Source: Chloroflexota bacterium (GTDB lineage Bacteria > Chloroflexota > Dehalococcoidia > Lucifugimonadales > UBA3495). Taken from it: 40,000 bases of DNA. The notes beneath the pieces are model-generated. The model was not told the origin of the DNA. It did not search any database and saw nothing but the letters and a program-made list of their open reading frames with translations. Each line of letters begins with the position of its first letter. Positions within the stretch are counted from its first letter, which is position 1. This document shows, piece after piece, positions 12,973-26,126 of the stretch. The stretch is from the NCBI GenBank assembly GCA_028874675.1, contig JAPPJA010000038.1, positions 1-40,000 on the forward strand. The letters are read 5' to 3'. Made by a program: the position numbers and the translations under genes.

Positions 12973-13764
12973 TCAAAATTCGGGTTGCCGTTTCTCTTTG
13001 AATGCCTGAATTCCTTCCTGGGGATGGGAAGAGGTAGCGAAATACTGCACGAAGGCCATACCTTCCCGGTCAACTCCCGCCCGCAGCGGAAGGTCCTGCC
13101 CCTGCCGGGTGATGGACTTGATCCAGCTTAACCCGGTACGGCTCTTGCCCCGGAGCTGACCCAGTATGCCTTCCAGTTCCGCATCCAGCTGTTCCTGCGG
13201 CGCCGCCCGCAGCGCCAGGCCCCATTCCACTGCCTCGTTGCCGGAAAGCCAGCGCCCGGTGGTCAGCAATTCCATGGCCCGCGGCATGCCGACCCGCCGG
13301 GGCAGGCGCTGGGTGGAGCCGCCGCCGGGCATCAGCCCAAAGTTGGCGTGCTGGTCGCCCAGGCGGGCGTCCTCGGCGGCAAGGGTCATATCGCAGGCCA
13401 GCGTCAGTTCCAGCCCCCCGGCCAGGGCGAACCCTTGCACCACCGCGATGGTGGGAATGGGCAAGTCTTCCAGCTGGAAGAAGCATTCGTTCAGCAGCTT
13501 CACGTAGGGGGGCAAAAGGGATATCTCGTCGAATACGGTGTCGAAGAAGAGCAGGTCCGCCCCGGCGCAGAAGGCCCGGCCCTCGCCCCGGATGACCAGG
13601 GCCTTGACCGATTCGTCCTCACCCACCGCCGCAACGGCGTGGGAGAACTCCGCCAGCAGCTCCAGGTTCAGGGCGTTAAGGGCGTCGGGCCGGTTCAGGC
13701 GGATGGTGGCAACCCGGTCAGCGGTTTCAAGGATGATGTTGGCGTATTGCAAATGGGGCCTCAC
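12973..13764 (-). CDS. Enoyl-CoA hydratase/isomerase (crotonase) family protein
   Basis: ATIRLNRPDALNALN, GEGRAFCAGADL and GGLELTLACD are crotonase motifs. Start is GTG 13764 or TTG 13752. Confidence 0.9.
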   Translation of the reverse strand: MRPHLQYANIILETADRVATIRLNRPDALNALNLELLAEFSHAVAAVGEDESVKALVIRGEGRAFCAGADLLFFDTVFDEISLLPPYVKLLNECFFQLEDLPIPTIAVVQGFALAGGLELTLACDMTLAAEDARLGDQHANFGLMPGGGSTQRLPRRVGMPRAMELLTTGRWLSGNEAVEWGLALRAAPQEQLDAELEGILGQLRGKSRTGLSWIKSITRQGQDLPLRAGVDREGMAFVQYFATSSHPQEGIQAFKEKRQPEF

Positions 13765-13807
13765 GGGGGAACTGCAAACGTAGATGCGCCCGGGCGTATT
13801 CGCGGGT

Positions 13808-14191
13808 TCAAGTTTGAGCCTTTACCTCGGCATCCCGAATGTAATCTATTGTTTCTCGGACGTCGCGGTCTATGTCTTCCTCAGGTTCCAATATCCCGTC
13901 GTAGAAGCACCTGCCGTGCAGGAAGGACTGTCGGGCGGCGTAACGCAACCGCAGGGACTCAAGCGAAGGATCAAGATGTCTCAGACGTCGAATACCAAGG
14001 ACCGTCTGACCCGATGTACGCGGTTCAACGCCGGTGCGGGCAAGAATCAGCGCGTCAGTTGCCCGCTTGGTCGCTCCCCAGGCCTTGTCGGCTGCGTTCC
14101 GCATTCGGCCTTCCTCAAGCATTTCCAGGGCATCGTCATATAGCGCTCGGGCGTCAGCGAATAGAAAGCTTACTCGGTCTGTTTCCAGCAT
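13808..14191 (-). CDS. Solo HEPN-fold protein, PaREP1-like (paralog A), with Rx4H motif
   Basis: 127 aa all-helical-looking protein. AADKAWGATKRATDAL is a PaREP1-like signature. RQSFLH (Rx4H) is in the position of the HEPN catalytic motif. About 72% aa identity to 16040-16423. Confidence 0.6.
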   Translation of the reverse strand: MLETDRVSFLFADARALYDDALEMLEEGRMRNAADKAWGATKRATDALILARTGVEPRTSGQTVLGIRRLRHLDPSLESLRLRYAARQSFLHGRCFYDGILEPEEDIDRDVRETIDYIRDAEVKAQT

Positions 14192-14318
14192 ATGGCCTCA
14201 GCAACTTCAGGGTATGCCGGATTCTACACATAGGTTAGCTGACAGGAAATATCTCGGATAGCAAGGCCCTTCCCTCTTTCAATAGAGGGAGCAGGGATGA
14301 ACGCAGAATCTGAACCCT

Positions 14319-14501
14319 CCTACCGCCCCAGCATTGACAGCAGCCCCGGATGACCAGGGCCTTGACCGATTCGTCCTCACCCACCGCGGCAACGGCGTGG
14401 GAGAACTCCGCCAGCAGCTCCAGGTTAAGGGCGTCGGGCCGGTTCAGGCGGATGGTGGCAACCCGGTCAGCGGTTTCAAGGATGATGTTGGCATATTGCA
14501 A
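14319..14501 (-). pseudogene. Chimeric relic: ~30 bp of the secF 3' end fused to a duplicated 5' fragment of the enoyl-CoA hydratase gene
   Basis: 14345-14520 matches 13585-13764 plus ~20 nt upstream, nearly identical with one 9-nt deletion. 14319-14348 (ctaccgccccagc..attgacagcag) matches the secF terminus at 16559. The junction is at a gccccgg microhomology. Confidence 0.8.
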
Positions 14502-14596
14502 ATGGGGGCCTCACGGGGTTGGTGTGGAAGACTGTGGGATAGCTCCTGGTCAGTTATCAAACCGCGTTAACGCGGAGGCTGCCATAAAAAGTGACG

Positions 14597-15391
14597 CTAG
14601 ACTGCAGCCAAGTCCAACGAGCGAACGGCCTCTGTTTCGCGATGGAGAAGTTCTTCAGCTTCCCTCAAGACATAAGAGTAGAACCTCTCTTCTGCTTCAA
14701 CCGAGTCCTCTGCTTCGAGCACAGGAATTGTAGAAGCGTCTTGAAGTTGGCAATAGAGAGCATTCATTGTCTCTTTGCCCTCATGAAGTTTTTCGGTTTC
14801 CTGATTCCACTCTTCCGCATCGATATGGCCTACATATTCGTCCGATTCGGAGTTCCACACCAGGTAGGCCTTGAAAAGAACATCAGCCACCAGTCGCGGC
14901 CTGGTCTCTACCGAAGGCTGGTAAATCATTTTTATCCGAACTGCGCCAGGCCCTTCCCCGACAAATCGATACTCAACTCGGTCGTTATTTGGATCCTCAG
15001 ACAGTTCCGAGTTGCCAGATGGCACGACGTGGAGCGCAATTACTTCGGCGTCAAATGTCTCATAGATCACTCGACCGTGTTCCAGGGAAACGGTAGCCTT
15101 CTGTTGGTGAACGAAAGACTCTTGAGGCTCCAGGGGGACTTCATGGGCTTTGCGCTCCTGAGCTTCATCGTAAACAGCCTGCAGCCGGCGCCATATGTCA
15201 GTCCCATTGCCGAACAGCTTCCCTAACTCGACAGCCATTTCGGGAGTGACTCGGGATTTGCCGTTCAAGACTTGTGCAAGCGCTTCCGGAGTGACGTTGA
15301 GCTTTAGCGAGATTTCAGGGACTTCCATTCCCAGGGCGTTCATATTGGACTGAATGAGCCGGCCGGGATGGGCAGGGTACTTCATTGGCAT
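14597..15391 (-). CDS. higA: HigA-family antitoxin (XRE HTH) fused to an unrecognised ~170 aa C-terminal domain
   Basis: The N-terminal ~85 aa (HPGRLIQSNMNALGMEVPEISLKLNVTPEALAQVLNGKSRVTPEMAVELGKLFGNGTDIWRRLQAVYD) matches HigA/VapI. The gene lies 11 nt downstream of higB with a GGGGGA SD. The remainder has no recognised family. Confidence 0.8.
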   Translation of the reverse strand: MPMKYPAHPGRLIQSNMNALGMEVPEISLKLNVTPEALAQVLNGKSRVTPEMAVELGKLFGNGTDIWRRLQAVYDEAQERKAHEVPLEPQESFVHQQKATVSLEHGRVIYETFDAEVIALHVVPSGNSELSEDPNNDRVEYRFVGEGPGAVRIKMIYQPSVETRPRLVADVLFKAYLVWNSESDEYVGHIDAEEWNQETEKLHEGKETMNALYCQLQDASTIPVLEAEDSVEAEERFYSYVLREAEELLHRETEAVRSLDLAAV

Positions 15392-15402
15392 TTGGTATCC
15401 CC

Positions 15403-15681
15403 CTAATGGTAGTCCACGTAATCTACATCAGTAACATTACTACCATCGAATCGAAAGATAATCCGCCAGTTGCGACTTACCATCACGGACCAGAACCCGC
15501 TCAAAGGCCCACTGAGAGGATGAAGCCGGTAGCCGGGCTGATCCATCTCCGCAGCTCTCTCTGCCGTATCAAGCAGGGTTAGTATTTCTTCAATCCTTGC
15601 AATGTGGTTGGCTGGCAGCCGCGCCCGGTCTCCTCGCTCAAACAGATGCTCAAGTCTGCGGCTACGGAACCCTATTATCAT
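15403..15681 (-). CDS. higB: HigB toxin (plasmid maintenance system killer, RelE/ParE superfamily)
   Basis: LEHLFERGD..., GYRLHPLSGPLSGFWSVMVSRNWRIIFRF and DVDYVDYH closely match the HigB consensus. A TATAAT (minus strand, 15698-15693) lies just upstream of the ATG. Confidence 0.9.
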   Translation of the reverse strand: MIIGFRSRRLEHLFERGDRARLPANHIARIEEILTLLDTAERAAEMDQPGYRLHPLSGPLSGFWSVMVSRNWRIIFRFDGSNVTDVDYVDYH

Positions 15682-15746
15682 GCTTTCAGAGAATTATACA
15701 GCCATGCGAAAAATATCGGGTTCATTTCGCGAGACCGCGAGACCTG

Positions 15747-15921
15747 CTACCTCCCCAGCAGCCCCAGCATTGACCGCAGGCCCGTGGCAGCGGTGGCGCC
15801 AACTCGGCGGCCCCGACCTATGATGCGGCCAAATTCGCCCCGCTCCCAGATGACCACGAACTGGCTGGCTATGAAGATTGAACTGTAGGTACCCACGATC
15901 ACGCCGATGGCCAGCACCAGG
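15747..15921 (-). pseudogene. Duplicated 3' fragment of secF (~175 bp)
   Basis: Aligns with 16559-16735 with roughly a dozen mismatches by eye and includes the stop codon. No 5' part is present. Confidence 0.85.
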
Positions 15922-16039
15922 ACGGTCTTGACTACTCAGGCAGGAAGTCTGCGTTCTGGTTACGCCCTTGCGCCCTTGAATTCGATCCATGGGCTTTCCC
16001 TGTCAAAGGCCAGGATATCGGCAAATTCCTAGTCAGTCA

Positions 16040-16423
16040 TCAAACTTCGGCCATTGCCTCGGCTTCCCGAATGTAATCCAGGGTTTCGCGTACGTCAGCA
16101 ATGATGTCGTCCTCCGGCTCCAGTATGCCGTCGTAGAAACAGGCGCCGTGCAGGAAGGATTGGCGATGTCCGTATCGCAGTCGCAAAGGTTCCAGGGCCG
16201 GGTCCTGCCTTCGCAGCTGCCGGATCATGCGCATGGTCTGCCCGAAGGTGCGTGGTTCCTCGCCGGTGCGGGCCAGCATCAGCGCGTCCGTGGCCCGCTT
16301 GGTCGCTCCCCAGGCCTTGTCGGCTGCGTTCCGCATTCGGCCCTGGTCCAGCATTTCCAGGGCGTCCTGATACAGATCACGGGCATCCGCGAAGAGGTAA
16401 CTTACTCGTTCGGTTTCCAGCAT
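16040..16423 (-). CDS. Solo HEPN-fold protein, PaREP1-like (paralog B), with Rx4H motif
   Basis: Same length and architecture as 13808-14191. Conserved AADKAWGATKRATDAL and RQSFLHG motifs. Confidence 0.6.
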   Translation of the reverse strand: MLETERVSYLFADARDLYQDALEMLDQGRMRNAADKAWGATKRATDALMLARTGEEPRTFGQTMRMIRQLRRQDPALEPLRLRYGHRQSFLHGACFYDGILEPEDDIIADVRETLDYIREAEAMAEV

Positions 16424-16502
16424 AGGTTCTCAAATGCGACAGGATACGCCATATTCTACAGGTATCCTGCTGCAACACGAAACATCTTGGAACACGAGGT
16501 AA

Positions 16503-16531
16503 GGGCCCCTCTACCAGTGAAAGAGGGGCCC
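16503..16531 (-). terminator. Hairpin downstream of secF (candidate terminator)
   Basis: gggcccctct/agaggggccc 10-bp stem with a 9-nt loop, 28 nt after the secF stop. The trailing U-tract is weak. Confidence 0.45.
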
Positions 16532-16558
16532 GGTGCAAGCCTCGAATTTTGAAGGTTT

Positions 16559-17560
16559 CTACCGCCCCAGCAGCCCGAAGATTGACAGCAGGCCCGTGGC
16601 GGCGGTGGCGCCGGCGCGGCGGCCCCGACCGATGATGCGGCCGAATTCGCCCCGCTCCCAGATGACCACGAACTGGCTGGCTATGAAGATGGAACTGTAG
16701 GTACCCACGATCACGCCGATGGCCACCACCAGCAGCAGTTCACGGATGCTGGAACCGCCAATGAGGAGCATGGCCAGCAGCACCGTAAAGGTGGTGAAGC
16801 TGGTGTTGATGGACCGGCCCACGGTCTCCACGATGCTCAGGTTGACCACCGTGTCCAGGGCCCGGTCCGGGTAACGAATGACGTTCTCGCGGATGCGGTC
16901 GAAAATTACGATGGTATCGTTAACGCTGTAACCGGCCACGGTGAGAATGCCCACGATGAACATGGAGTTGACCTCCATGTTGAGCACGCGGCCCAGGATG
17001 GAGAACACGCCCAGCACCAGCAGGGTGTCGTGGATGAGGGTAAGGATGGCGCTGATACCGTAGCGGTAAGCCCGGGGCACCCGCCGGAAGGCATACCAGA
17101 TATACAGCAGGATGAACACCGAGGCCGCCGCCAGCGCGATTATGGCGTTGCGCACCGTTTCCTGGGCCACGATGGGCGAAGTGGAGTCGAAGTTGACGGC
17201 CAGCACCGGGGCCACATTCTGAGTAAGGTCGTCTTCAATTACCTGGCGCTCGGACTTGCCCCCGCCGGCGTCCTCGCTGAGCACCTTGGTACGGACCAGG
17301 AGCGTGCGGCTGCCGGTGCGCTGAATCAGGGCCTCGGGATGGCCCAGAAATTCCATGCGCTGCTGCACCTCGTCCTGGGACACGGACCTTTGAAAGGTAA
17401 TGTCCATGACGGAACCGCTGGTGAAGTCGATGCCCGGCCGCAGCCCGGAACCGCCGGTAACCCACCCGCCCGGGGGCAGGGCCAGTGAGAGTATTCCGGG
17501 AATCAGGAGCAGGGCCGAGAACAGGAAATACCAACCCCGCTTGCCTACGATGTTATACAT
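16559..17560 (-). CDS. secF: Protein translocase subunit SecF
   Basis: Typical SecF topology and motifs (DFTSGS, NDTIVIFDRIREN). GGAGG precedes the ATG. Located downstream of secD. Confidence 0.93.
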   Translation of the reverse strand: MYNIVGKRGWYFLFSALLLIPGILSLALPPGGWVTGGSGLRPGIDFTSGSVMDITFQRSVSQDEVQQRMEFLGHPEALIQRTGSRTLLVRTKVLSEDAGGGKSERQVIEDDLTQNVAPVLAVNFDSTSPIVAQETVRNAIIALAAASVFILLYIWYAFRRVPRAYRYGISAILTLIHDTLLVLGVFSILGRVLNMEVNSMFIVGILTVAGYSVNDTIVIFDRIRENVIRYPDRALDTVVNLSIVETVGRSINTSFTTFTVLLAMLLIGGSSIRELLLVVAIGVIVGTYSSIFIASQFVVIWERGEFGRIIGRGRRAGATAATGLLSIFGLLGR

Positions 17561-21461: not shown

Positions 21462-22049
21462 TTACTCCGATTCCTCCCGGGATGCCCGGGGTTCCTGGGT
21501 TTCCTCGGCGGTGGCTTCGCCGTCGTTGGGTTCGCCGTCGGTGGGTTCGTCGTCAGTGGGTTCGGGCGGGTCTGCCTCGTAGGTAATTTTCCAGAAGCTC
21601 TCCCGCGAGACCAGGTGATCGATGTAGAGAACGCCGTTCAGGTGATCGGTCTCGTGCTCCAGCGCCTGGGCCAGCAGGCCATCAGCCTTGATGCGGACCA
21701 CCTTGCCGTTCAGGTCCAGGGCCCTGGCCCGTACCCGCTCAGAGCGCTTAACCGTCCCGCGATAGCCGGGAATGCTGAGGCAGCCCTCTTCGACCTCCCG
21801 TTCACCCTCCCGCCGGATGATTTCCGGATTGATCAAGACCAGCGGTTCGTTCCACTCGGGCAACTGGATTACGGCCACCTTTTGCAGGCCACCCACCTGG
21901 TTGGCGGCGAGGCCTACACCATGCTCGGCATGCATGGTCTCCACCATGTCGTCGGTGTACTGCTTCAGGCTGGCCGGAATCTGGGTGATGCGCCTTGTCT
22001 GCTGGCGCAGGATGGGGTCGGGAACATGCCGCATGGTCAAACGGGCCAA
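21462..22049 (-). CDS. def: Peptide deformylase with acidic repeat-containing C-terminal tail
   Basis: GVGLAANQVG, EGCLSIPG and HETDHLNG motifs. GGGAGG at 22064-22059 lies 9 nt before TTG 22049. ATG 22034 is an alternative start. The track start at 22184 is unlikely. Confidence 0.9.
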   Translation of the reverse strand: MARLTMRHVPDPILRQQTRRITQIPASLKQYTDDMVETMHAEHGVGLAANQVGGLQKVAVIQLPEWNEPLVLINPEIIRREGEREVEEGCLSIPGYRGTVKRSERVRARALDLNGKVVRIKADGLLAQALEHETDHLNGVLYIDHLVSRESFWKITYEADPPEPTDDEPTDGEPNDGEATAEETQEPRASREESE

Positions 22050-22210
22050 GGTGGGATACCTCCCGGGACGGATCAAGGGGACGAGGCCGTGAAATTTCGC
22101 GCCGGATTCAGCAAATAAGTATAGCCGAGGCGACTGAAAAGGGCAAAGAAAAGGTTGGCGCCGGTCCCGGGGAAACCGGCGCAAAGGCCACGTTGAAGGC
22201 CCGCCTGGCC

Positions 22211-22717
22211 TCAGCCCGCGGGCGGGTTGAAGGGCGGCATGGGCGGGGGAAAGTCCATGCTCTCGTCAGCCCGGGCCACTTCCTCGGGAACGAGCAGGCG
22301 GTTTATGATGCGCTCGCGTGAGGGCGCAGCCGAATAGTCGATATTCGGCCCGTGTTCCCTGATCTCCCATAGCCTTTCGATGAACCGTGATACGTCGGCC
22401 ACAAGCTGGTGCAGTAGAGGGTCTGTCAGTCGATCCTCGTAGTAGTTTTCGTGAAGCTGGTCGGCGATGGCCTGCAGATGCCTGAGTTCCGGCTGGTCGT
22501 ATTCATCCGCCAGCAAGTCAACAATTTCCCGCCGCAGGTTGTGGGAACTGTGGCGCCAGTTCCGGTCCTCCGCGATGGCTTTGACCGCCTGGGCCACCGC
22601 CCCGGAAGCCTTGTCCGACGCCTGCACGCGGTCTCCCTGCGTGTGCAGTTCGTAGTTGGCCTGTTCCAGCAGGCGGCGGCTCAGTTCCGCGTGACGATTG
22701 GCGTTGGCCAGGGACAT
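22211..22717 (-). CDS. PaREP1/HEPN-like helical protein, tandem paralog 1 (168 aa)
   Basis: QASDKASGAVAQAVKAIA and LHENYYED signatures. The start was chosen by collinearity with the paralog at 22905-23411 (MSLANANRH vs MSLVNANRH). Conserved proline-rich tail DESMDFPPPMPPFNPPAG. Confidence 0.6.
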   Translation of the reverse strand: MSLANANRHAELSRRLLEQANYELHTQGDRVQASDKASGAVAQAVKAIAEDRNWRHSSHNLRREIVDLLADEYDQPELRHLQAIADQLHENYYEDRLTDPLLHQLVADVSRFIERLWEIREHGPNIDYSAAPSRERIINRLLVPEEVARADESMDFPPPMPPFNPPAG

Positions 22718-22904
22718 GGTGGTAACCGCTGTTCCAGTGGGATGCGCTGGGTCTGCTCTCAATGCAGTGTAACCAGCGCCGGTGGGGCAAGTCCATACAT
22801 AGCGTGGTGATGCTTATAGGGGGGTTGGTCGGTGGCGGGCCCTTTGGCCGGGCTTCGGACGAGGGCGCCAAGGGGTGTGGGGAAACCCCTGGGCCCGCCT
22901 GGCC

Positions 22905-23411
22905 TCAGCCCGCGGGCGGGTTGAAGGGCGGCATGGGCGGGGGAAAGTCCATGCTCTCGTCAGCCTGGGCCACGTCCTCGGGGACGAGCAGACGGCCGAT
23001 GATGCCTAGCTGGTCCGGCGATGGAATAAACTCTGGGTCAGGGCCTTTCTCCCTTACAATCCATAGGGATTCAATGCGCTCGGTGATTTGTCCCAACAGG
23101 TAGGCGACAAGCACATCGCTCATCCGGTCCTCGTAGTAGTTTTCGTGCAGTTGATCGGCTATGCCCTGCAAGTTCACCAGGTCCGGCACATCGAACTCGC
23201 TGGCAATGAGCCCCACAATCTCCCGCCGCAGGTTGTGGGAGCCGTGGCGCCAGTTCCGGTCCTCCGCGATGGCCTTCACCGCCTGGGCCACCGCCCCGGA
23301 AGCCTTGTCCGACGCCTGCACCCGGTCTTCCTGCGTGTGCAGTTCGTAGTTGGCCTGTTCCAGCAGGCTTCGGCTCAGTTCGGCGTGGCGATTGGCGTTG
23401 ACCAGGGACAT
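22905..23411 (-). CDS. PaREP1/HEPN-like helical protein, tandem paralog 2 (168 aa)
   Basis: Same length as paralog 1. Near-identical N-terminal ~67 aa and C-terminal ~28 aa, with a divergent central ~70 aa. Confidence 0.6.
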   Translation of the reverse strand: MSLVNANRHAELSRSLLEQANYELHTQEDRVQASDKASGAVAQAVKAIAEDRNWRHGSHNLRREIVGLIASEFDVPDLVNLQGIADQLHENYYEDRMSDVLVAYLLGQITERIESLWIVREKGPDPEFIPSPDQLGIIGRLLVPEDVAQADESMDFPPPMPPFNPPAG

Positions 23412-23591
23412 GGTGGTAACCGCTTTTCAAGTGGGGTGCGCTGGGACTGCTCTCAATGCAGTTTAACCAGCGCCGGTGAGGCAAGTCCATACATAGCGTG
23501 GTGATGCTTATAGGGGGGTCGGTCGGTGGAGGGGCTTCCGGCAGGGCCCGGCGCCGGAGGGCACATCAGGGATTTCTCACGGGTCCCGTTT

Positions 23592-26126
23592 TTACAGCAG
23601 GTCCACCGGATCCACGTCAATGGTCACGTCGCGGGTTGGCAGGTCGAGGCCCTCCAGGAAGCGGTGCAGGTTGCGACCCCGCACCAGCAGGTTCCACCGG
23701 TAACGGCCGCGTACCCTGGGGGGAATGCCGGGGGCGGGGCCAAGAATTGCTACATCCGTCAGGCCCTGGGACCGGATACGTTCCCGCATCAGCCGCGCGG
23801 CAATGGTAGCCTGCCGCTGGCACGTGGTCGGGTTGGAGTCCTGGTAGAGCAGCCGCACCAGTTGATTGAAGGGCGGGTTGCCCTGGCGGCGACGGGTAAT
23901 GATCTCCGCCCGGGCCAGGGAAGCATAGTCCTGGTTGGCAGCGGCCATCACGGCATAATGGTCGGGGTTATAGGTCTGGATGACGACTCTTCCCGGCCTG
24001 GCCCCGCGGCCAGCCCGGCCCGCCACCTGGCAAAGCAGCCCAAAGGCCCGCTCCCCGGCGCGGAAGTCGGGGCGGTAGATGCCCACGTCGGCCAGAATCA
24101 CGCCCACCAGCGTAACGTCGGGCAGGTCCAGGCCCTTGGCCACCATCTGGGTGCCCACCAGCGCCTGGACTTCTCCCGCAGCCAGGCGGCGCATGGTCTC
24201 GTCCGGGTCCATGCCGGAGCGGGCGGCGTCGGAGTCCCACCGCTCCACCACCACACCAGGAAAGGCGGCCTTTACCTCGTCCACCACCCGCTGGGTGCCG
24301 ATGCCCAGCTGCCGGATGTGACGGCCCTGGCACCGTCGGCAGATGTCGGGCGGGCGACTGCGCCGGTTGCACCGGTGGCAGCGAAGCCTGGATTCCGAAG
24401 AGTGGTAGGTGAGAGTGGCCGAGCAACTGCTGCAGGTAACCACGAAGCCGCAGTCGCGGCACTGGACCATGGGCGCGCTGCCCCGCTGGTTGAGGAACAG
24501 GATGGCCTGCTCGCCCCGCCCGATGCACTGGGCCAGTCCCTCAGACAGGGCCTGGCTGAAGATGCTGCGGTTGCCTTGCCGGAGTTCCTGGCGCATATCG
24601 GCAATTTCCACCCGTGCCAGGCCCGGGGATTCGCCTGAATCGGCTGACACCGTGCCCTGGGCTCCTTCAACATTCCGGCCGCTGCTCTGCCCGCCGTCCG
24701 GCCTGGCGCCGAAGGGAATGCGGTAGGGCAGTTCCAGCAGCTTATGGCTGCCCTGCAGGGCGTGGTAGTAGGTCTCGATGTCCGGGGTGGCGCTGCCCAG
24801 CAGCACGGTGGCCCCGGTCAGGCGGGCCAGCTCCAGGGCGGCGGTGCGGGCATGGTAGAAGGGATGGGCCTCCACCTGCTTGTAGGTCCACTCGTGCTCT
24901 TCGTCTATGACGATCAGGCCCAGGCTGGGCAGCGGCGCGAAGAGGGCCGAACGGGGGCCGATTACCACGTCGTAGTCGCCATCCCGCATCTGCCACCACT
25001 GGTCGAACCGCTGCCGGTCGGTAAGTCCGCTGTGGGTGACGGCTACCTTGCCGGGAAACCGGGCGTTGACCCGCTCAACCGTCTGGGGAGTCAGGGAGAT
25101 TTCCGGCACCAGGAAGAGGGCCTGCTTTCCCAGGGCTACAGTTTTCGCGATGGCCCGTAGATAGACTTCCGTCTTGCCGCTTCCGGTTACCCCGTGCAGC
25201 AGGAAAGCGCCGGGCGGCCGCGTCGGGTTCGCCAGGGACTCTTCCACCGCCTCCAGGGCCGCGGCCTGATCGGCGTTGAGTACGGGAGGTTCTTCGGCCA
25301 CAGGGGCGCCGCCCTCGCCGTCCTCCCCTTCCCCGAACCGGTCCCGGCCCTCCACCGACCGCGATTCCAGCCGGACCCATTCCAGACCCGCCAAACCCTT
25401 TTCCACCAAGGCGTCCCCCACGCCCGGTCCAAACTCCCGGTTGGCCAGGGTGGTGGAGTACCCGTCTCCGGCTTCGCGTAGGGTTTGAAGCAGGTTCTCC
25501 TGCCTTGGGGAGACCCGAACGGATAGCTCGGGCCAGTTGCCCAGGGCGTCGGGAAGGCCGGTGGGAAACAAGCGGGAGTCGTAGCGAAAGGTGCGGGGAC
25601 GAGGCAGGTCCACCAGCCGGTGCACCAGGCCCCGGTCCACCAGGCGGTTGACCTCCCGAATACCCGCCTGGCCCAGGAGTTTGGCGAAGTCGGCCTCGCT
25701 CATCCGTCCCTGCTGGGCCAGGGCGGCCAGGGCGTCCCTGGAAGCGGGTTTCAGGCCCGGGTCATCGGGGGACTCAAGGGAGCGGGGCAGGATTCGGGAG
25801 CGGACCTGGGCCTTGAATCCGGGAGGGAAGAACAGGGCCAGGGCATCGTAGAGGGCGCAGAGGTAGTAGCCGGCCATCCACCGGGCCAGCGACAGGGCCG
25901 TCTCGTCCAGCAGCCGGCCCGGCTCGACGGCCTGCAAAATGTCCCTGGTGACTTCCACCTGGGGCGCCGACACCAGTTCCAGAACCACGCCCTGCAGAAT
26001 GCGCCGGCCAAAGGGGACCCAGACCAACTGGCCGGGCTCGATTCGAAACCCCTCGGGGATGCTGTAGGAAAAGGTTCGGGAGTAGCCAACCGGGGCGTCA
26101 ACCGCTACTTCTGCGTATCTGGTCAT
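23592..26126 (-). CDS. priA: Primosomal protein N' (replication restart helicase PriA)
   Basis: GVTGSGKTEVY Walker A, DEEHE, Cys-rich zinc region (CRDCG...CSSCS...CHRCN...CRRCQG), 844 aa. Confidence 0.95.
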   Translation of the reverse strand: MTRYAEVAVDAPVGYSRTFSYSIPEGFRIEPGQLVWVPFGRRILQGVVLELVSAPQVEVTRDILQAVEPGRLLDETALSLARWMAGYYLCALYDALALFFPPGFKAQVRSRILPRSLESPDDPGLKPASRDALAALAQQGRMSEADFAKLLGQAGIREVNRLVDRGLVHRLVDLPRPRTFRYDSRLFPTGLPDALGNWPELSVRVSPRQENLLQTLREAGDGYSTTLANREFGPGVGDALVEKGLAGLEWVRLESRSVEGRDRFGEGEDGEGGAPVAEEPPVLNADQAAALEAVEESLANPTRPPGAFLLHGVTGSGKTEVYLRAIAKTVALGKQALFLVPEISLTPQTVERVNARFPGKVAVTHSGLTDRQRFDQWWQMRDGDYDVVIGPRSALFAPLPSLGLIVIDEEHEWTYKQVEAHPFYHARTAALELARLTGATVLLGSATPDIETYYHALQGSHKLLELPYRIPFGARPDGGQSSGRNVEGAQGTVSADSGESPGLARVEIADMRQELRQGNRSIFSQALSEGLAQCIGRGEQAILFLNQRGSAPMVQCRDCGFVVTCSSCSATLTYHSSESRLRCHRCNRRSRPPDICRRCQGRHIRQLGIGTQRVVDEVKAAFPGVVVERWDSDAARSGMDPDETMRRLAAGEVQALVGTQMVAKGLDLPDVTLVGVILADVGIYRPDFRAGERAFGLLCQVAGRAGRGARPGRVVIQTYNPDHYAVMAAANQDYASLARAEIITRRRQGNPPFNQLVRLLYQDSNPTTCQRQATIAARLMRERIRSQGLTDVAILGPAPGIPPRVRGRYRWNLLVRGRNLHRFLEGLDLPTRDVTIDVDPVDLL

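What the first reader, a model, noticed from the sequence alone, without database searches (positions are those of the whole stretch)
22190..23535. 694-bp tandem pair of PaREP1/HEPN-like genes with conserved ends and a hypervariable core, inserted between priA and def
The two 168 aa genes are offset by exactly 694 bp, together with a ~115-bp conserved leader.

Their products differ at only 5 of the first 67 residues and 2 of the last 28, which include the proline-rich tail DESMDFPPPMPPFNPPAG. The central ~70 residues are only about half identical. This mosaic suggests either gene conversion at the ends or diversifying selection/cassette exchange in the core.

Each leader can fold into a nested hairpin (gcgctgg...ctgc-N7-gcag...ccagcgc, 22744-22779 and 23438-23473).

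priA and def are adjacent in many bacteria (the priA-def-fmt arrangement), so the pair looks like an insertion into a conserved operon. Unlike the 127 aa family in the secF hotspot, these proteins lack the Arg of the Rx4H motif (IADQLH).
Basis: partly seen in the sequence, partly recalled or inferred. Interest (0 to 1): 0.7.

Follow-up and report, generated by a model that had tools for sequence, protein, structure and literature searches.

The report
Mosaic tandem PaREP1 HEPN gene pair
Two neighbouring copies of a small HEPN-fold (PaREP1-family) gene in a sponge-associated Chloroflexota genome have nearly identical ends but an old, very different middle. This mosaic was made by recombination, and the proteins' function is still unknown.

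Summary
Two intact 168-aa genes lie on the minus strand (22211-22717 and 22905-23411), exactly 694 bp apart, between priA and def. Both pass Pfam's threshold for PaREP1.

The mosaic is highly significant. There are 15 differences in 279 nt in the ends and 99 in 228 nt in codons 65-140 (p=1.6e-25). Synonymous divergence is 0.05-0.19 in the ends and saturated in the core, so recombination, not constraint, explains it.

In related Dehalococcoidia MAGs the priA-def slot always holds this gene, in one or two copies. The cores fall into old, discrete classes (A, B, C) in any combination, while the ends follow the host lineage. Core dN/dS is 0.1-0.35, so the core is not hypervariable in the sense of positive selection.

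The missing Arg and the tandem arrangement are published traits of the PaREP1/8 clade. The leader holds a conserved promoter-like motif. The hairpin is strong here but not conserved.

New features are the bacterial host range, a 45-residue C-terminal extension ending in an invariant D-x-PPP-x-PPF-x-PP tail, and the segmental concerted evolution. The likely function, a HEPN dimer with a non-canonical RNA-binding or RNase site, is inferred and untested.

The parts
22211..22717 (-). Copy A, next to def: a 168-aa PaREP1/HEPN gene with an A-class core
   Evidence: ORF. Pfam PF05942, E=5.5e-13. AF2 model with pLDDT 93.4, all-helical. The best Foldseek hits are HEPN proteins 2q00 and 2hsb.
22905..23411 (-). 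Copy B, next to priA: a 168-aa PaREP1/HEPN gene with a B-class core
   Evidence: ORF. Pfam PF05942, E=2.7e-10. Its core is 90% identical in DNA to both copies in L002 and only 57% identical to copy A.
22298..22525 (-). Divergent core of copy A, codons 65-140. In the model it covers the end of the insert helix, helix 3 including the H89-x-N91 motif, helix 4 and the first helix of the extension.
   Evidence: 99 of 228 nt differ from copy B. dS is saturated and dN is 0.46. The best breakpoints fall at codons 65 and 140.
22992..23219 (-). Divergent core of copy B, codons 65-140
   Evidence: Same analysis as for copy A. B-class cores recur in L002, L005, L028, L046 and L064.
22718..22830 (-). Leader of copy A, holding the promoter-like bipartite motif GTATGGAC-N18-TACACT at 22766-22798
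   Evidence: About 93% identical to the leader of copy B. The motif occurs only upstream of genes in the priA slot, in 17 loci, and none is expected by chance in the window.
23412..23524 (-). Leader of copy B, holding the promoter-like motif at 23460-23492
22744..22779 (-). Inverted repeat or hairpin of leader A. It overlaps the -10-like box.
   Evidence: -17.3 kcal/mol, z = -3.2. Across 21 leaders 71% of cells pair, with weak covariation. There is no alifold consensus.
23438..23473 (-). Inverted repeat or hairpin of leader B
   Evidence: -18.9 kcal/mol, z = -4.0.
22214..22255 (-). Proline-rich C-terminal tail of copy A (D155-F-PPP-M-PPF-N-PP-AG)
   Evidence: D155, P157-159 and P166 are invariant in 56 homologues, and P161, P162, F163 and P165 are at least 90% conserved. 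In about 800 kb of loci the motif occurs only at the C-terminus of family members, apart from one spurious match.
22908..22949 (-). Proline-rich C-terminal tail of copy B
   Evidence: Identical peptide. dS across codons 141-168 between the copies is only 0.05.
22198..22210 (-). Thirteen nt after the stop codon of copy A, identical in copy B (22892-22904): the 3' edge of the duplicated unit
   Evidence: an identical run covers 22198-22271.
23592..26126 (-). priA, the upstream flank of the slot
   Evidence: Pfam PriA_3primeBD, DEAD, PriA_C and Zn_ribbon_PriA. The synteny is conserved.
21462..22034 (-). def (peptide deformylase), the downstream flank. Its likely start is the ATG at 22034, and it has its own promoter-like site at 22118-22146.
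   Evidence: Pfam Pep_deformylase, E=7.6e-46. Promoter scan.

Best explanation
This is a tandem duplicate of a self-contained cassette made of a promoter-like leader and a 168-aa gene. The gene encodes a bacterial subfamily of the PaREP1/8 clade of HEPN-fold proteins. The cassette sits in a conserved slot between priA and def in a clade of Dehalococcoidia (Chloroflexota) that the sample and MAG names suggest are sponge-associated.

The mosaic arises by homologous recombination. The leader with codons 1-64, and codons 141-168 with 13 nt after the stop, are repeatedly homogenised between copies and alleles within a lineage by gene conversion. Codons 65-140 persist as a few old, discrete allele classes (A, B, C) under purifying selection. 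These classes are reshuffled among genomes, so a slot may hold A, B, C-like, A+A', B+B or B+A. This part is shown.

The following is inferred. The proteins act as HEPN dimers, homodimers where there is one copy and optionally heterodimers where there are two. The site would be built from the canonical His at the end of helix 3 (H89-x-N91) and invariant basic and His residues of the insert between helices 2 and 3 (R52, W54, R55, H59, R62, R63), which would replace the missing Arg. The variable core would set partner or target specificity. The invariant proline-rich tail would dock onto an unknown partner. The most likely activity is RNA binding or cleavage in a conflict or stress role.
For: Identity:
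- Pfam PaREP1 is above its cut-off for both copies.
- The AF2 model has pLDDT 93.4, and its best PDB matches are all HEPN proteins: 2q00 (the PaREP1 structure), 2hsb, 1o3u, 4nqf, 1wol and the HepT toxins.

Mosaic and recombination:
- Differences between the copies are 15/279 nt in the ends and 99/228 nt in the core, p=1.6e-25.
- dS is 0.19 (N), 0.05 (C) and above 2 (core). Even the motif at residues 85-96, which has no amino-acid change, has pS 0.77.
- The N-terminal part follows the lineage. Copy A is 94% identical to copy B and 93% to the B-class L002 copies. L005 (B class) is 95-96% identical to L061/L062 (A class).
- The cores follow their class. Copy B is 90% identical to L002 and 57% to copy A.
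- L061 and L005 are close genomes (priA dS 0.11) yet carry A and B cores. L001 and L008 (dS 0.25) have cores with saturated dS.
- Among 136 distinct proteins, 45 pairs have ends that differ by less than 8% and cores that differ by more than 40%.
- The same mosaic is seen in the independent pairs of L045 and L007.

Slot and copy number.

Own promoter: the motif GTATRGAC-N17-19-TANACT lies upstream of nearly every priA-slot copy and nowhere else in the 68 loci held.

Dimer inference: single-chain fusions of two PaREP1 domains exist.

Alternative-site inference: the invariant residues are listed. [quoted passage not shown] AF0298 (2hsb) is the closest structural match by TM-score (0.78, rmsd 2.0).
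Against: - There is no functional evidence at all: no assay, no expression data, and no hit in PADLOC or NCBIfam.
- No donor for any core replacement was identified. The best cross-locus core identity is only about 69%. Old balanced alleles and repeated import therefore cannot be told apart.
- Core dS also exceeds the flanking-gene dS within a class, by up to about fourfold in most comparisons. This could partly reflect noise in segments of 76 codons or a locally raised mutation rate.
- Most genomes, including complete chromosomes, have a single copy in the slot, so heterodimers cannot be essential.
- Dimerisation and the position of the variable core relative to any interface could not be modelled with the tools at hand.
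- The Foldseek E-values are weak (0.017 or higher), although probabilities are 0.99-1.0.
Confidence: 0.8

Rival explanations
1. The pattern reflects only different selective constraint. The ends are under strong purifying selection and the core is free to drift after an old duplication, with no recombination.
For: The N-terminal part has very low dN/dS (0.02-0.15) and many invariant residues. The core tolerates more change (dN/dS 0.1-0.35).
Against: Constraint on the protein cannot keep synonymous sites identical. pS is 0.05-0.17 in the ends and 0.70-0.80 in the core. The non-coding leader is also about 93% identical. The N-terminal part groups by genome and the core by class.
Confidence: 0.03
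2. The pair is a two-component toxin-antitoxin or toxin-immunity module. One paralogue would neutralise the other, and the core classes would be matched specificity pairs kept by frequency-dependent selection.
For: HEPN proteins are common toxins, and PaREP1/8 belongs to the nucleotidyltransferase-associated HEPN-T group. Toxin-antitoxin genes are enriched in sponge symbionts (PMC8163846). Discrete old allele classes and variable copy number resemble polymorphic conflict loci. A higBA pair and two more PaREP1 genes lie 6-9 kb away.
Against: Most genomes carry a single copy in the slot, and pairs can be B+B or A+A' as well as B+A. There is no MNT or other partner next to the genes here or in L066 and L067. 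There is no PADLOC hit, and the family is absent from viral contigs. Both copies keep the same invariant residues.
Confidence: 0.1
3. The locus is a programmed variation system. One copy would be a silent or alternate cassette that is swapped into an expression site, or the core would be targeted by a diversity-generating retroelement.
For: Conserved ends flanking a variable core resemble cassette systems. Between close relatives the order and content of the slot differ: B-A, A-A', B-B, A alone.
Against: Both copies are full-length and each has its own promoter-like leader. There is no recombinase, reverse transcriptase or template repeat within the flanking genes priA, def and cca. Only two copies are present. 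Core dN/dS is well below 1 with saturated dS, which indicates old alleles and not fresh mutagenesis.
Confidence: 0.04
4. The family is a host-interaction factor of sponge symbionts. The invariant polyproline tail would act as a eukaryote-like short linear motif (a ligand for an EVH1, SH3 or profilin type of domain), and the HEPN body would be a carrier or effector.
For: All 60 genomic loci are in Dehalococcoidia/Chloroflexota MAGs, many with sponge-derived names. The window matches a contig named ROBB21-1, which I read as the sponge metagenomes of Robbins et al. 2021. The tail is invariant and specific to the family. Its resemblance to FPPPP-type ligands rests on my own knowledge and was not tested.
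Against: There is no signal peptide or secretion context. Few lineages of sponge symbionts encode secretion systems (PMC8163846). Distant relatives of unknown origin carry a related LPPVxP tail, so the motif may be a general feature of the family. The host origin of most MAGs was not verified.
Confidence: 0.05

Closest known systems
PaREP1/PaREP8 family (Pfam PF05942; HEPN-T(Parep1/8) of Anantharaman et al. 2013; structure 2q00/2jpu from Sulfolobus solfataricus)
   Same: The Pfam model matches above its threshold. 2q00 is the best hit by both sequence profile and structure. The canonical His is kept while the Arg of Rx4-6H is missing. The genes occur in tandem arrays and as multi-copy paralogues.
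   Different: The family is described as archaeal, with proteins of about 115-130 aa. Here the hosts are bacterial (Chloroflexota), and the protein carries a conserved 45-residue C-terminal extension ending in an invariant polyproline tail. It has an invariant R-x-WRH-x-SH-x-LRR insert loop and sits in a fixed slot among housekeeping genes.
AF0298-like HEPN-T proteins (PDB 2hsb)
   Same: This is the best structural superposition: TM 0.78 relative to the target, rmsd 2.0 A over 119 columns. In that group a conserved His from the insert between helices 2 and 3 is proposed to build an alternative active site. The 168-aa family also has invariant His and Arg residues in that insert.
   Different: Sequence identity is 14%. 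AF0298-like proteins lack the canonical His, whereas this family keeps it (H89). No activity is known for either.
HepT-MntA (HEPN-MNT) type II/VII toxin-antitoxin systems (PDB 7bxo, 6m6w, 7ae6, 5yep)
   Same: The HEPN fold is shared; these structures rank 7-35 in Foldseek. HepT acts as a dimer with a composite site.
   Different: There is no Rx4-6H at the end of helix 3. There is no adjacent minimal nucleotidyltransferase. There is no PADLOC hit.
Segmental concerted evolution of tandem or dispersed paralogues by gene conversion (textbook examples from my own knowledge: tufA/tufB, and the pilE/pilS cassettes of Neisseria)
   Same: Within a genome, parts of the paralogues are kept nearly identical, including at synonymous sites, while other parts stay divergent.
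   Different: There is no sign of programmed switching or of silent cassettes. The divergent segment consists of a few old classes under purifying selection that are shared across host lineages.

Membership tests
PaREP1/PaREP8 (PF05942; HEPN-T Parep1/8) | Match to the curated Pfam model above its gathering score | tested here: met
   49.3 and 40.6 bits against a cut-off of 24.4. All but one of the 120 listed homologues carry a precomputed PF05942 hit.
PaREP1/PaREP8 (PF05942; HEPN-T Parep1/8) | Four-helix HEPN fold with an insert between helices 2 and 3 | tested here: met
   The AF2 model (pLDDT 93.4) has helices at 3-27, 30-51, an insert at 52-72, then 76-94 and 99-122. The top Foldseek hits are 2q00, 2hsb, 1o3u, 4nqf and 1wol with probability 0.99-1.0, although E-values are 0.017 or higher.
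PaREP1/PaREP8 (PF05942; HEPN-T Parep1/8) | Canonical His kept and Arg of Rx4-6H absent at the end of helix 3 (the family description in PMC3710099) | tested here: met
   H89 and N91 are invariant, and there is no Arg 5-7 residues before H89 (LQAIADQLH). The description is quoted.
PaREP1/PaREP8 (PF05942; HEPN-T Parep1/8) | Tandem arrays or multi-copy paralogy | tested here: met
   Tandem pairs occur in the window and in L002, L007, L011, L039, L045, L061/62, L066 and L067. One genome holds six loci.
PaREP1/PaREP8 (PF05942; HEPN-T Parep1/8) | Archaeal distribution, as described in 2013 and in the Pfam name | tested here: not met
   All 60 genomic loci are in Dehalococcoidia/Chloroflexota MAGs. 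This is a matter of described range and not a structural criterion.
Catalytic HEPN RNase toxins (HepT and similar) | Rx4-6H motif at the end of helix 3 | tested here: not met
   Only the His is present there. An R52-x6-H59 string does exist, but it lies in the insert between helices 2 and 3.
Catalytic HEPN RNase toxins (HepT and similar) | Adjacent minimal nucleotidyltransferase (MNT) partner | tested here: not met
   The neighbours are priA and def. The next gene, cca, is a housekeeping CCA-adding enzyme. There is no MNT in L066 or L067.
Catalytic HEPN RNase toxins (HepT and similar) | Metal-independent RNase activity or toxicity | not testable with these tools
   This needs a biochemical assay or heterologous expression.
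Known anti-phage defence systems (PADLOC-DB 2.0) | Match to a defence-system protein model | tested here: not met
   No family matched at E up to 1 for either copy or for the 127-aa paralogues.
Known structured RNA leader (Rfam 15) | Covariance-model match in the leader | tested here: not met
There is no match in 22718-22830 or 23412-23524 at E up to 1. There is no alifold consensus.
Diversity-generating or cassette-switching system | Reverse transcriptase with a template repeat, or a site-specific recombinase, next to the variable region; fresh variation without purifying selection | tested here: not met
   The flanks are priA, def and cca. Core dN/dS is 0.07-0.35 with saturated dS.

The most novel reading that the evidence does not exclude
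The priA-def slot holds a polymorphic specificity locus special to symbionts. Old core classes (A, B, C) would be kept by balancing or frequency-dependent selection because they set which partner HEPN subunit or which target (RNA, or an invader or host factor) is recognised. Gene conversion would keep the catalytic N-terminal half and the polyproline docking tail uniform. The tail would be a short linear motif that links a non-canonical HEPN nuclease to a conserved cellular or host partner. That would make this a new kind of single-gene, allele-diversified HEPN conflict system without an MNT partner.
Probability: 0.12. Interest if true: 0.7.

Novelty: new variant of a known kind. Interest (0 to 1): 0.4.

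Why it matters
PaREP1/8 is one of the HEPN clades with no known function, and it has been described as archaeal. This locus shows a well-sampled bacterial branch with three useful properties:
- It has an added conserved C-terminal module.
- It sits at a fixed and easily recognised genomic address.
- It offers natural allele series and natural one-copy and two-copy states.

This gives a tractable system for asking whether Arg-less HEPN domains are active and what their variable surface recognises. The segmental concerted evolution is also a clean, quantifiable example of recombination uncoupling parts of a small gene in uncultivated symbionts. Without functional data it remains a moderately interesting evolutionary observation on a member of a known family.

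Tried and rejected
- Rfam scan of the region: only a spurious lncRNA hit inside priA.
- RNAalifold on 21 leaders: no consensus structure. Folding of the homologous 44-nt stretch in relatives shows that the hairpin is not maintained in L002, L005 or L001.
- PADLOC and NCBIfam: nothing for the 168-aa or the 127-aa proteins.
- Foldseek against viral structures: no hit with E of 0.001 or lower.
- Scan of IMG/VR viral contigs: no relative of the family.
- Search with the C-terminal 44 residues alone against the 5.8-billion protein set: the word index returned no candidate, so one search was wasted. A regex scan of all held loci replaced it and found the tail only in family members, apart from one spurious match.
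- Search for a donor of the core replacements (L008, L001): the best cross-locus core identity is only about 69%, so no donor was identified.
- SSB C-terminal tail mimicry, considered because the gene is next to priA and MDF...PPF resembles MDFDDDIPF. I rejected it. The Phe is not the terminal residue, and most family members are not next to priA.
- A functional link to cca, which is a Pol-beta-type nucleotidyltransferase two genes away. I rejected it because family members elsewhere lack it.
- Heterodimer modelling could not be done: the structure tool takes one chain only and returns no coordinates.
Full report
**Observation**

The window carries two intact 168-codon ORFs on the minus strand, copy A at 22211-22717 and copy B at 22905-23411. 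They lie between priA (23592-26126) and def (ORF 21462-22184, likely start at 22034).

Repeat finding gives two direct-repeat blocks, both with a start-to-start spacing of exactly 694 bp and no indels. An ungapped sliding-window comparison shows three zones:
- 90-100% identity over 22198-22299, which is the 3' end of the gene plus 13 nt after the stop;
- 90-100% identity over 22521-22830, which is codons 1-64 plus a leader of about 113 nt;
- roughly 40-55% identity over most of 22300-22520, with a small island at the ADQLHENYYED motif.

The contrast is not chance:
- Differences number 15/279 nt in the ends and 99/228 nt in the core (Fisher p=1.6e-25).
- At third codon positions they number 10/93 and 47/76 (p=1.4e-12).
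- The best pair of breakpoints falls at codons 65 and 140, and 0 of 200 permutations reached that score.

The two-copy structure is reproduced at 99.985% identity in a separately assembled contig (ROBB21-1_SAMN13943214 scaffold_1478). A long-read contig from a relative shows the same gene order (L064).

**What the genes are**

Both products pass Pfam's curated threshold for PaREP1 (PF05942), at 49.3 and 40.6 bits against a cut-off of 24.4.

An AlphaFold2 model built on 56 homologues is confident (pLDDT 93.4, pTM 0.86) and all-helical. Helices lie at 3-27, 30-51, 59-72, 76-94 and 99-122, followed by an extension with helices at 132-141 and 145-155 and a coil tail at 156-168.

Foldseek against the PDB returns HEPN proteins in six of its first seven places: 2q00 (the PaREP1 structure), 2hsb, 1o3u, 4nqf and 1wol, followed by the HepT toxins. 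Probabilities are 0.99-1.0, but E-values are only 0.017 or higher. A profile search of PDB sequences also finds 2q00/2jpu first, weakly (E = 0.08).

The HEPN survey by Anantharaman et al. describes the Parep1/8 clade as 'lacks R but H is conserved'.

That paper places Rx4-6H at the end of helix 3. In the model this is where the invariant H89-x-N91 sits. The family also has an invariant cluster in the insert between helices 2 and 3: R52, W54, R55, S58, H59, L61, R62 and R63. The paper suggests that such basic residues may replace the Arg in this clade. It also suggests that an insert-borne His builds an alternative site in AF0298-like proteins. AF0298 (2hsb) is the closest structural match here by TM-score. 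An active but non-canonical site is thus plausible, but it is only inferred.

**Distribution and the slot**

A search of 5.8 billion proteins found 157 relatives. Nearly all of the 120 listed are exactly 168 aa, and all but one carry a precomputed PaREP1 hit.

A scan of 185,579 species-representative genomes gave 60 loci, all in Dehalococcoidia/Chloroflexota MAGs. Many have names that point to sponges (RHO, IRC, SB0662, SAR202 bin22). The window's own contig name points to the sponge metagenomes of Robbins et al. 2021. The mapping from names to hosts is my inference and was not verified.

In one clade the order rplS-priA-[168-aa gene]-def-cca-secD-secF-[127-aa PaREP1] is conserved, while priA identity falls to 70%. 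The slot is therefore old. Its content varies:
- B then A in the window and in L064;
- B+B in L002, the closest genome;
- A+A' in L061/L062 and in L007;
- a single A-like copy in L063 (99% identical to copy A, priA dS 0.07), L065, L001, L003, L004, L009, L022 and L024;
- a single copy with a C-like core in L008;
- a single B copy in L005, L028 and L046.

Other genomes carry the family elsewhere among housekeeping genes, again often as tandem pairs. Spacings range from 507 to 859 bp, so duplication is recurrent. The family was not found on viral contigs.

**The mosaic is a recombination signature**

Nei-Gojobori estimates between copies A and B give dS of 0.19 for codons 1-64 and 0.05 for codons 141-168. 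For codons 65-140 dS is saturated at above 2. Even the twelve codons of the motif, which show no amino-acid change, have pS of 0.77. Protein-level constraint cannot produce this pattern.

Segment-wise DNA identities show that the ends follow the host lineage and the core follows an allele class:
- The N-terminal part of copy A is 94% identical to copy B and 93% to the B-class copies of L002.
- The N-terminal part of L005 (B class) is 95-96% identical to that of the A-class genes of L061/L062.
- The core of copy B is 90% identical to L002, 73% to L005 and only 57% to copy A.

Flanking genes calibrate this. L061 and L005 are very close (priA dS 0.11) yet carry A and B cores. L001 and L008 (dS 0.25) have cores with saturated dS.

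Clustering 136 distinct 168-aa proteins gives three major core classes with 49, 33 and 23 members, plus minor ones. All three major classes are 85-88% identical to copy A in the N-terminal part. Forty-five pairs have nearly identical ends and very different cores, and 20 pairs show the converse. Similar mosaics occur in the independent pairs of L045 and L007. In L002 the conversion tract instead covers the core and the C-terminal part.

Core dN/dS is 0.07-0.35 wherever dS is measurable. The core is less constrained than the N-terminal part, but it is not under gene-wide positive selection. 'Hypervariable' is therefore the wrong word. These are old alleles under purifying selection that are reshuffled by homologous recombination.

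I could not identify donors for the replacements. Long-term balanced polymorphism and repeated import therefore remain indistinguishable.

**Leader**

Rfam finds nothing in the leaders. An alignment of 21 leaders from the priA slot shows two conserved blocks, GCATCAC-N-ACGCTA-N-GTATRGAC and TGGYTANACT. I read these as a -35-like and a -10-like element 18 nt apart. That reading is an inference, since Chloroflexota promoters are poorly known.

The bipartite pattern GTATRGAC-N17-19-TANACT occurs twice in the window, once before each copy, with none expected by chance. It occurs upstream of nearly every copy in the priA slot, in 17 loci, and nowhere else in the 68 loci held. Each copy thus seems to be its own transcription unit. 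No terminator-like site lies between the copies, and def has its own promoter-like site.

It is not stable in L002, L005 or L001. RNAalifold predicts no shared structure. Counting the named pairs gives 71% paired with some covariation, which is inconclusive because the structure was derived from one of the sequences. The hairpin also straddles the -10-like box. If the promoter reading is right, only its 3' arm would be transcribed, and it would be better viewed as a lineage-specific DNA inverted repeat.

**C-terminal extension and tail**

Archaeal PaREP1 proteins and the window's 127-aa paralogues end at about residue 125. The 168-aa family adds two short helices and a tail. In the tail, D155, P157-159 and P166 are invariant, and P161, P162, F163 and P165 are at least 90% conserved.

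In about 800 kb of held loci the motif occurs only at the C-terminus of family members, apart from one spurious match. More distant relatives end in a related acidic-LPPVxP motif.

The role of the tail is unknown. A docking peptide is my best guess.

**How it probably works**

Shown:
- the identity of the cassette;
- variation in slot occupancy;
- segmental gene conversion or allelic recombination;
- purifying selection on both copies.

Inferred: the proteins act as HEPN dimers. Support comes from at least seven natural single-chain fusions of two PaREP1 domains among relatives. It also comes from the general dimeric habit of HEPN domains, which I state from established knowledge. One copy suffices in most genomes, so a second copy would add optional heterodimers. 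The conserved N-terminal half together with H89 would form the working site, and the variable core would set specificity. No defence-system model matches and no MNT partner is present.

**Comparison and novelty**

By its curated model, its fold, its motif pattern and its genomic habit, this is a member of the PaREP1/8 clade. It departs from the described family in four ways:
- a bacterial host range;
- the conserved C-terminal module;
- the fixed address among housekeeping genes;
- the documented segmental concerted evolution.

I rate it a new variant of a known kind, of moderate interest. The evolutionary account has high confidence. The biochemical account has low confidence.

Noticed in passing
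window 13585-16732: The 'secF hotspot' looks like a duplication or insertion scar. On the minus strand the order is secF, then p127b (PaREP1), then a 174-nt copy of the secF 3' end (15747-15920, 93% identical). Next come higB (15403-15681) and higA (14597-15391). They are followed by a roughly 165-nt copy of the 5' end of the enoyl-CoA hydratase gene (14343-14507, 98-99% identical to 13585-13758), p127a (PaREP1) and the hydratase gene itself. The 127-aa cassette is thus duplicated together with fragments of both flanking genes, with a HigBA pair in between.
   Followed up: partly
window 13808-14191 and 16040-16423 (minus strand): The two 127-aa PaREP1 paralogues are 77% identical, and the identity is spread evenly along the proteins. 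They keep a canonical RQSFLH (Rx4H) motif, unlike the 168-aa family. A 127-aa gene downstream of secF is also conserved by synteny in related MAGs.
   Followed up: partly
proteins P0129, P0136, P0137, P0146, P0147, P0152, P0162 (representative library): Natural single-chain fusions of two PaREP1 domains exist, 239-290 aa long. In several of them one domain has a degenerate H-x-N-F-Y-E motif, which suggests pseudo-dimers with one working site.
   Followed up: partly
L066 12870-13968: A second, distantly related PaREP1 subfamily (180 and 183 aa, about 33% identical to the 168-aa family) also sits as a tandem pair. It lies between proC and pdxA in a complete Dehalococcoidia chromosome and has a different C-terminal extension.
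   Followed up: no
L002 5365-6507: In the closest related genome the two slot copies have identical core and C-terminal parts (pS 0) but differ in the N-terminal part (pS 0.11). This is the reverse of the window's pattern and shows that conversion tracts vary in position.
   Followed up: partly
window 21462-22034 (def) and 23592-26126 (priA): Def carries a long acidic, proline-rich C-terminal extension (…EADPPEPTDDEPTDGEPNDGEATAEETQEPRASREESE). PriA has a Gly/Glu-rich insert near residue 270. Both are unusual for these enzymes.
   Followed up: no
L064 1200-1936: The B copy in this low-coverage long-read contig is broken by a frameshift, and priA is fragmented too. This is probably sequencing error and not a pseudogene.
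   Followed up: no
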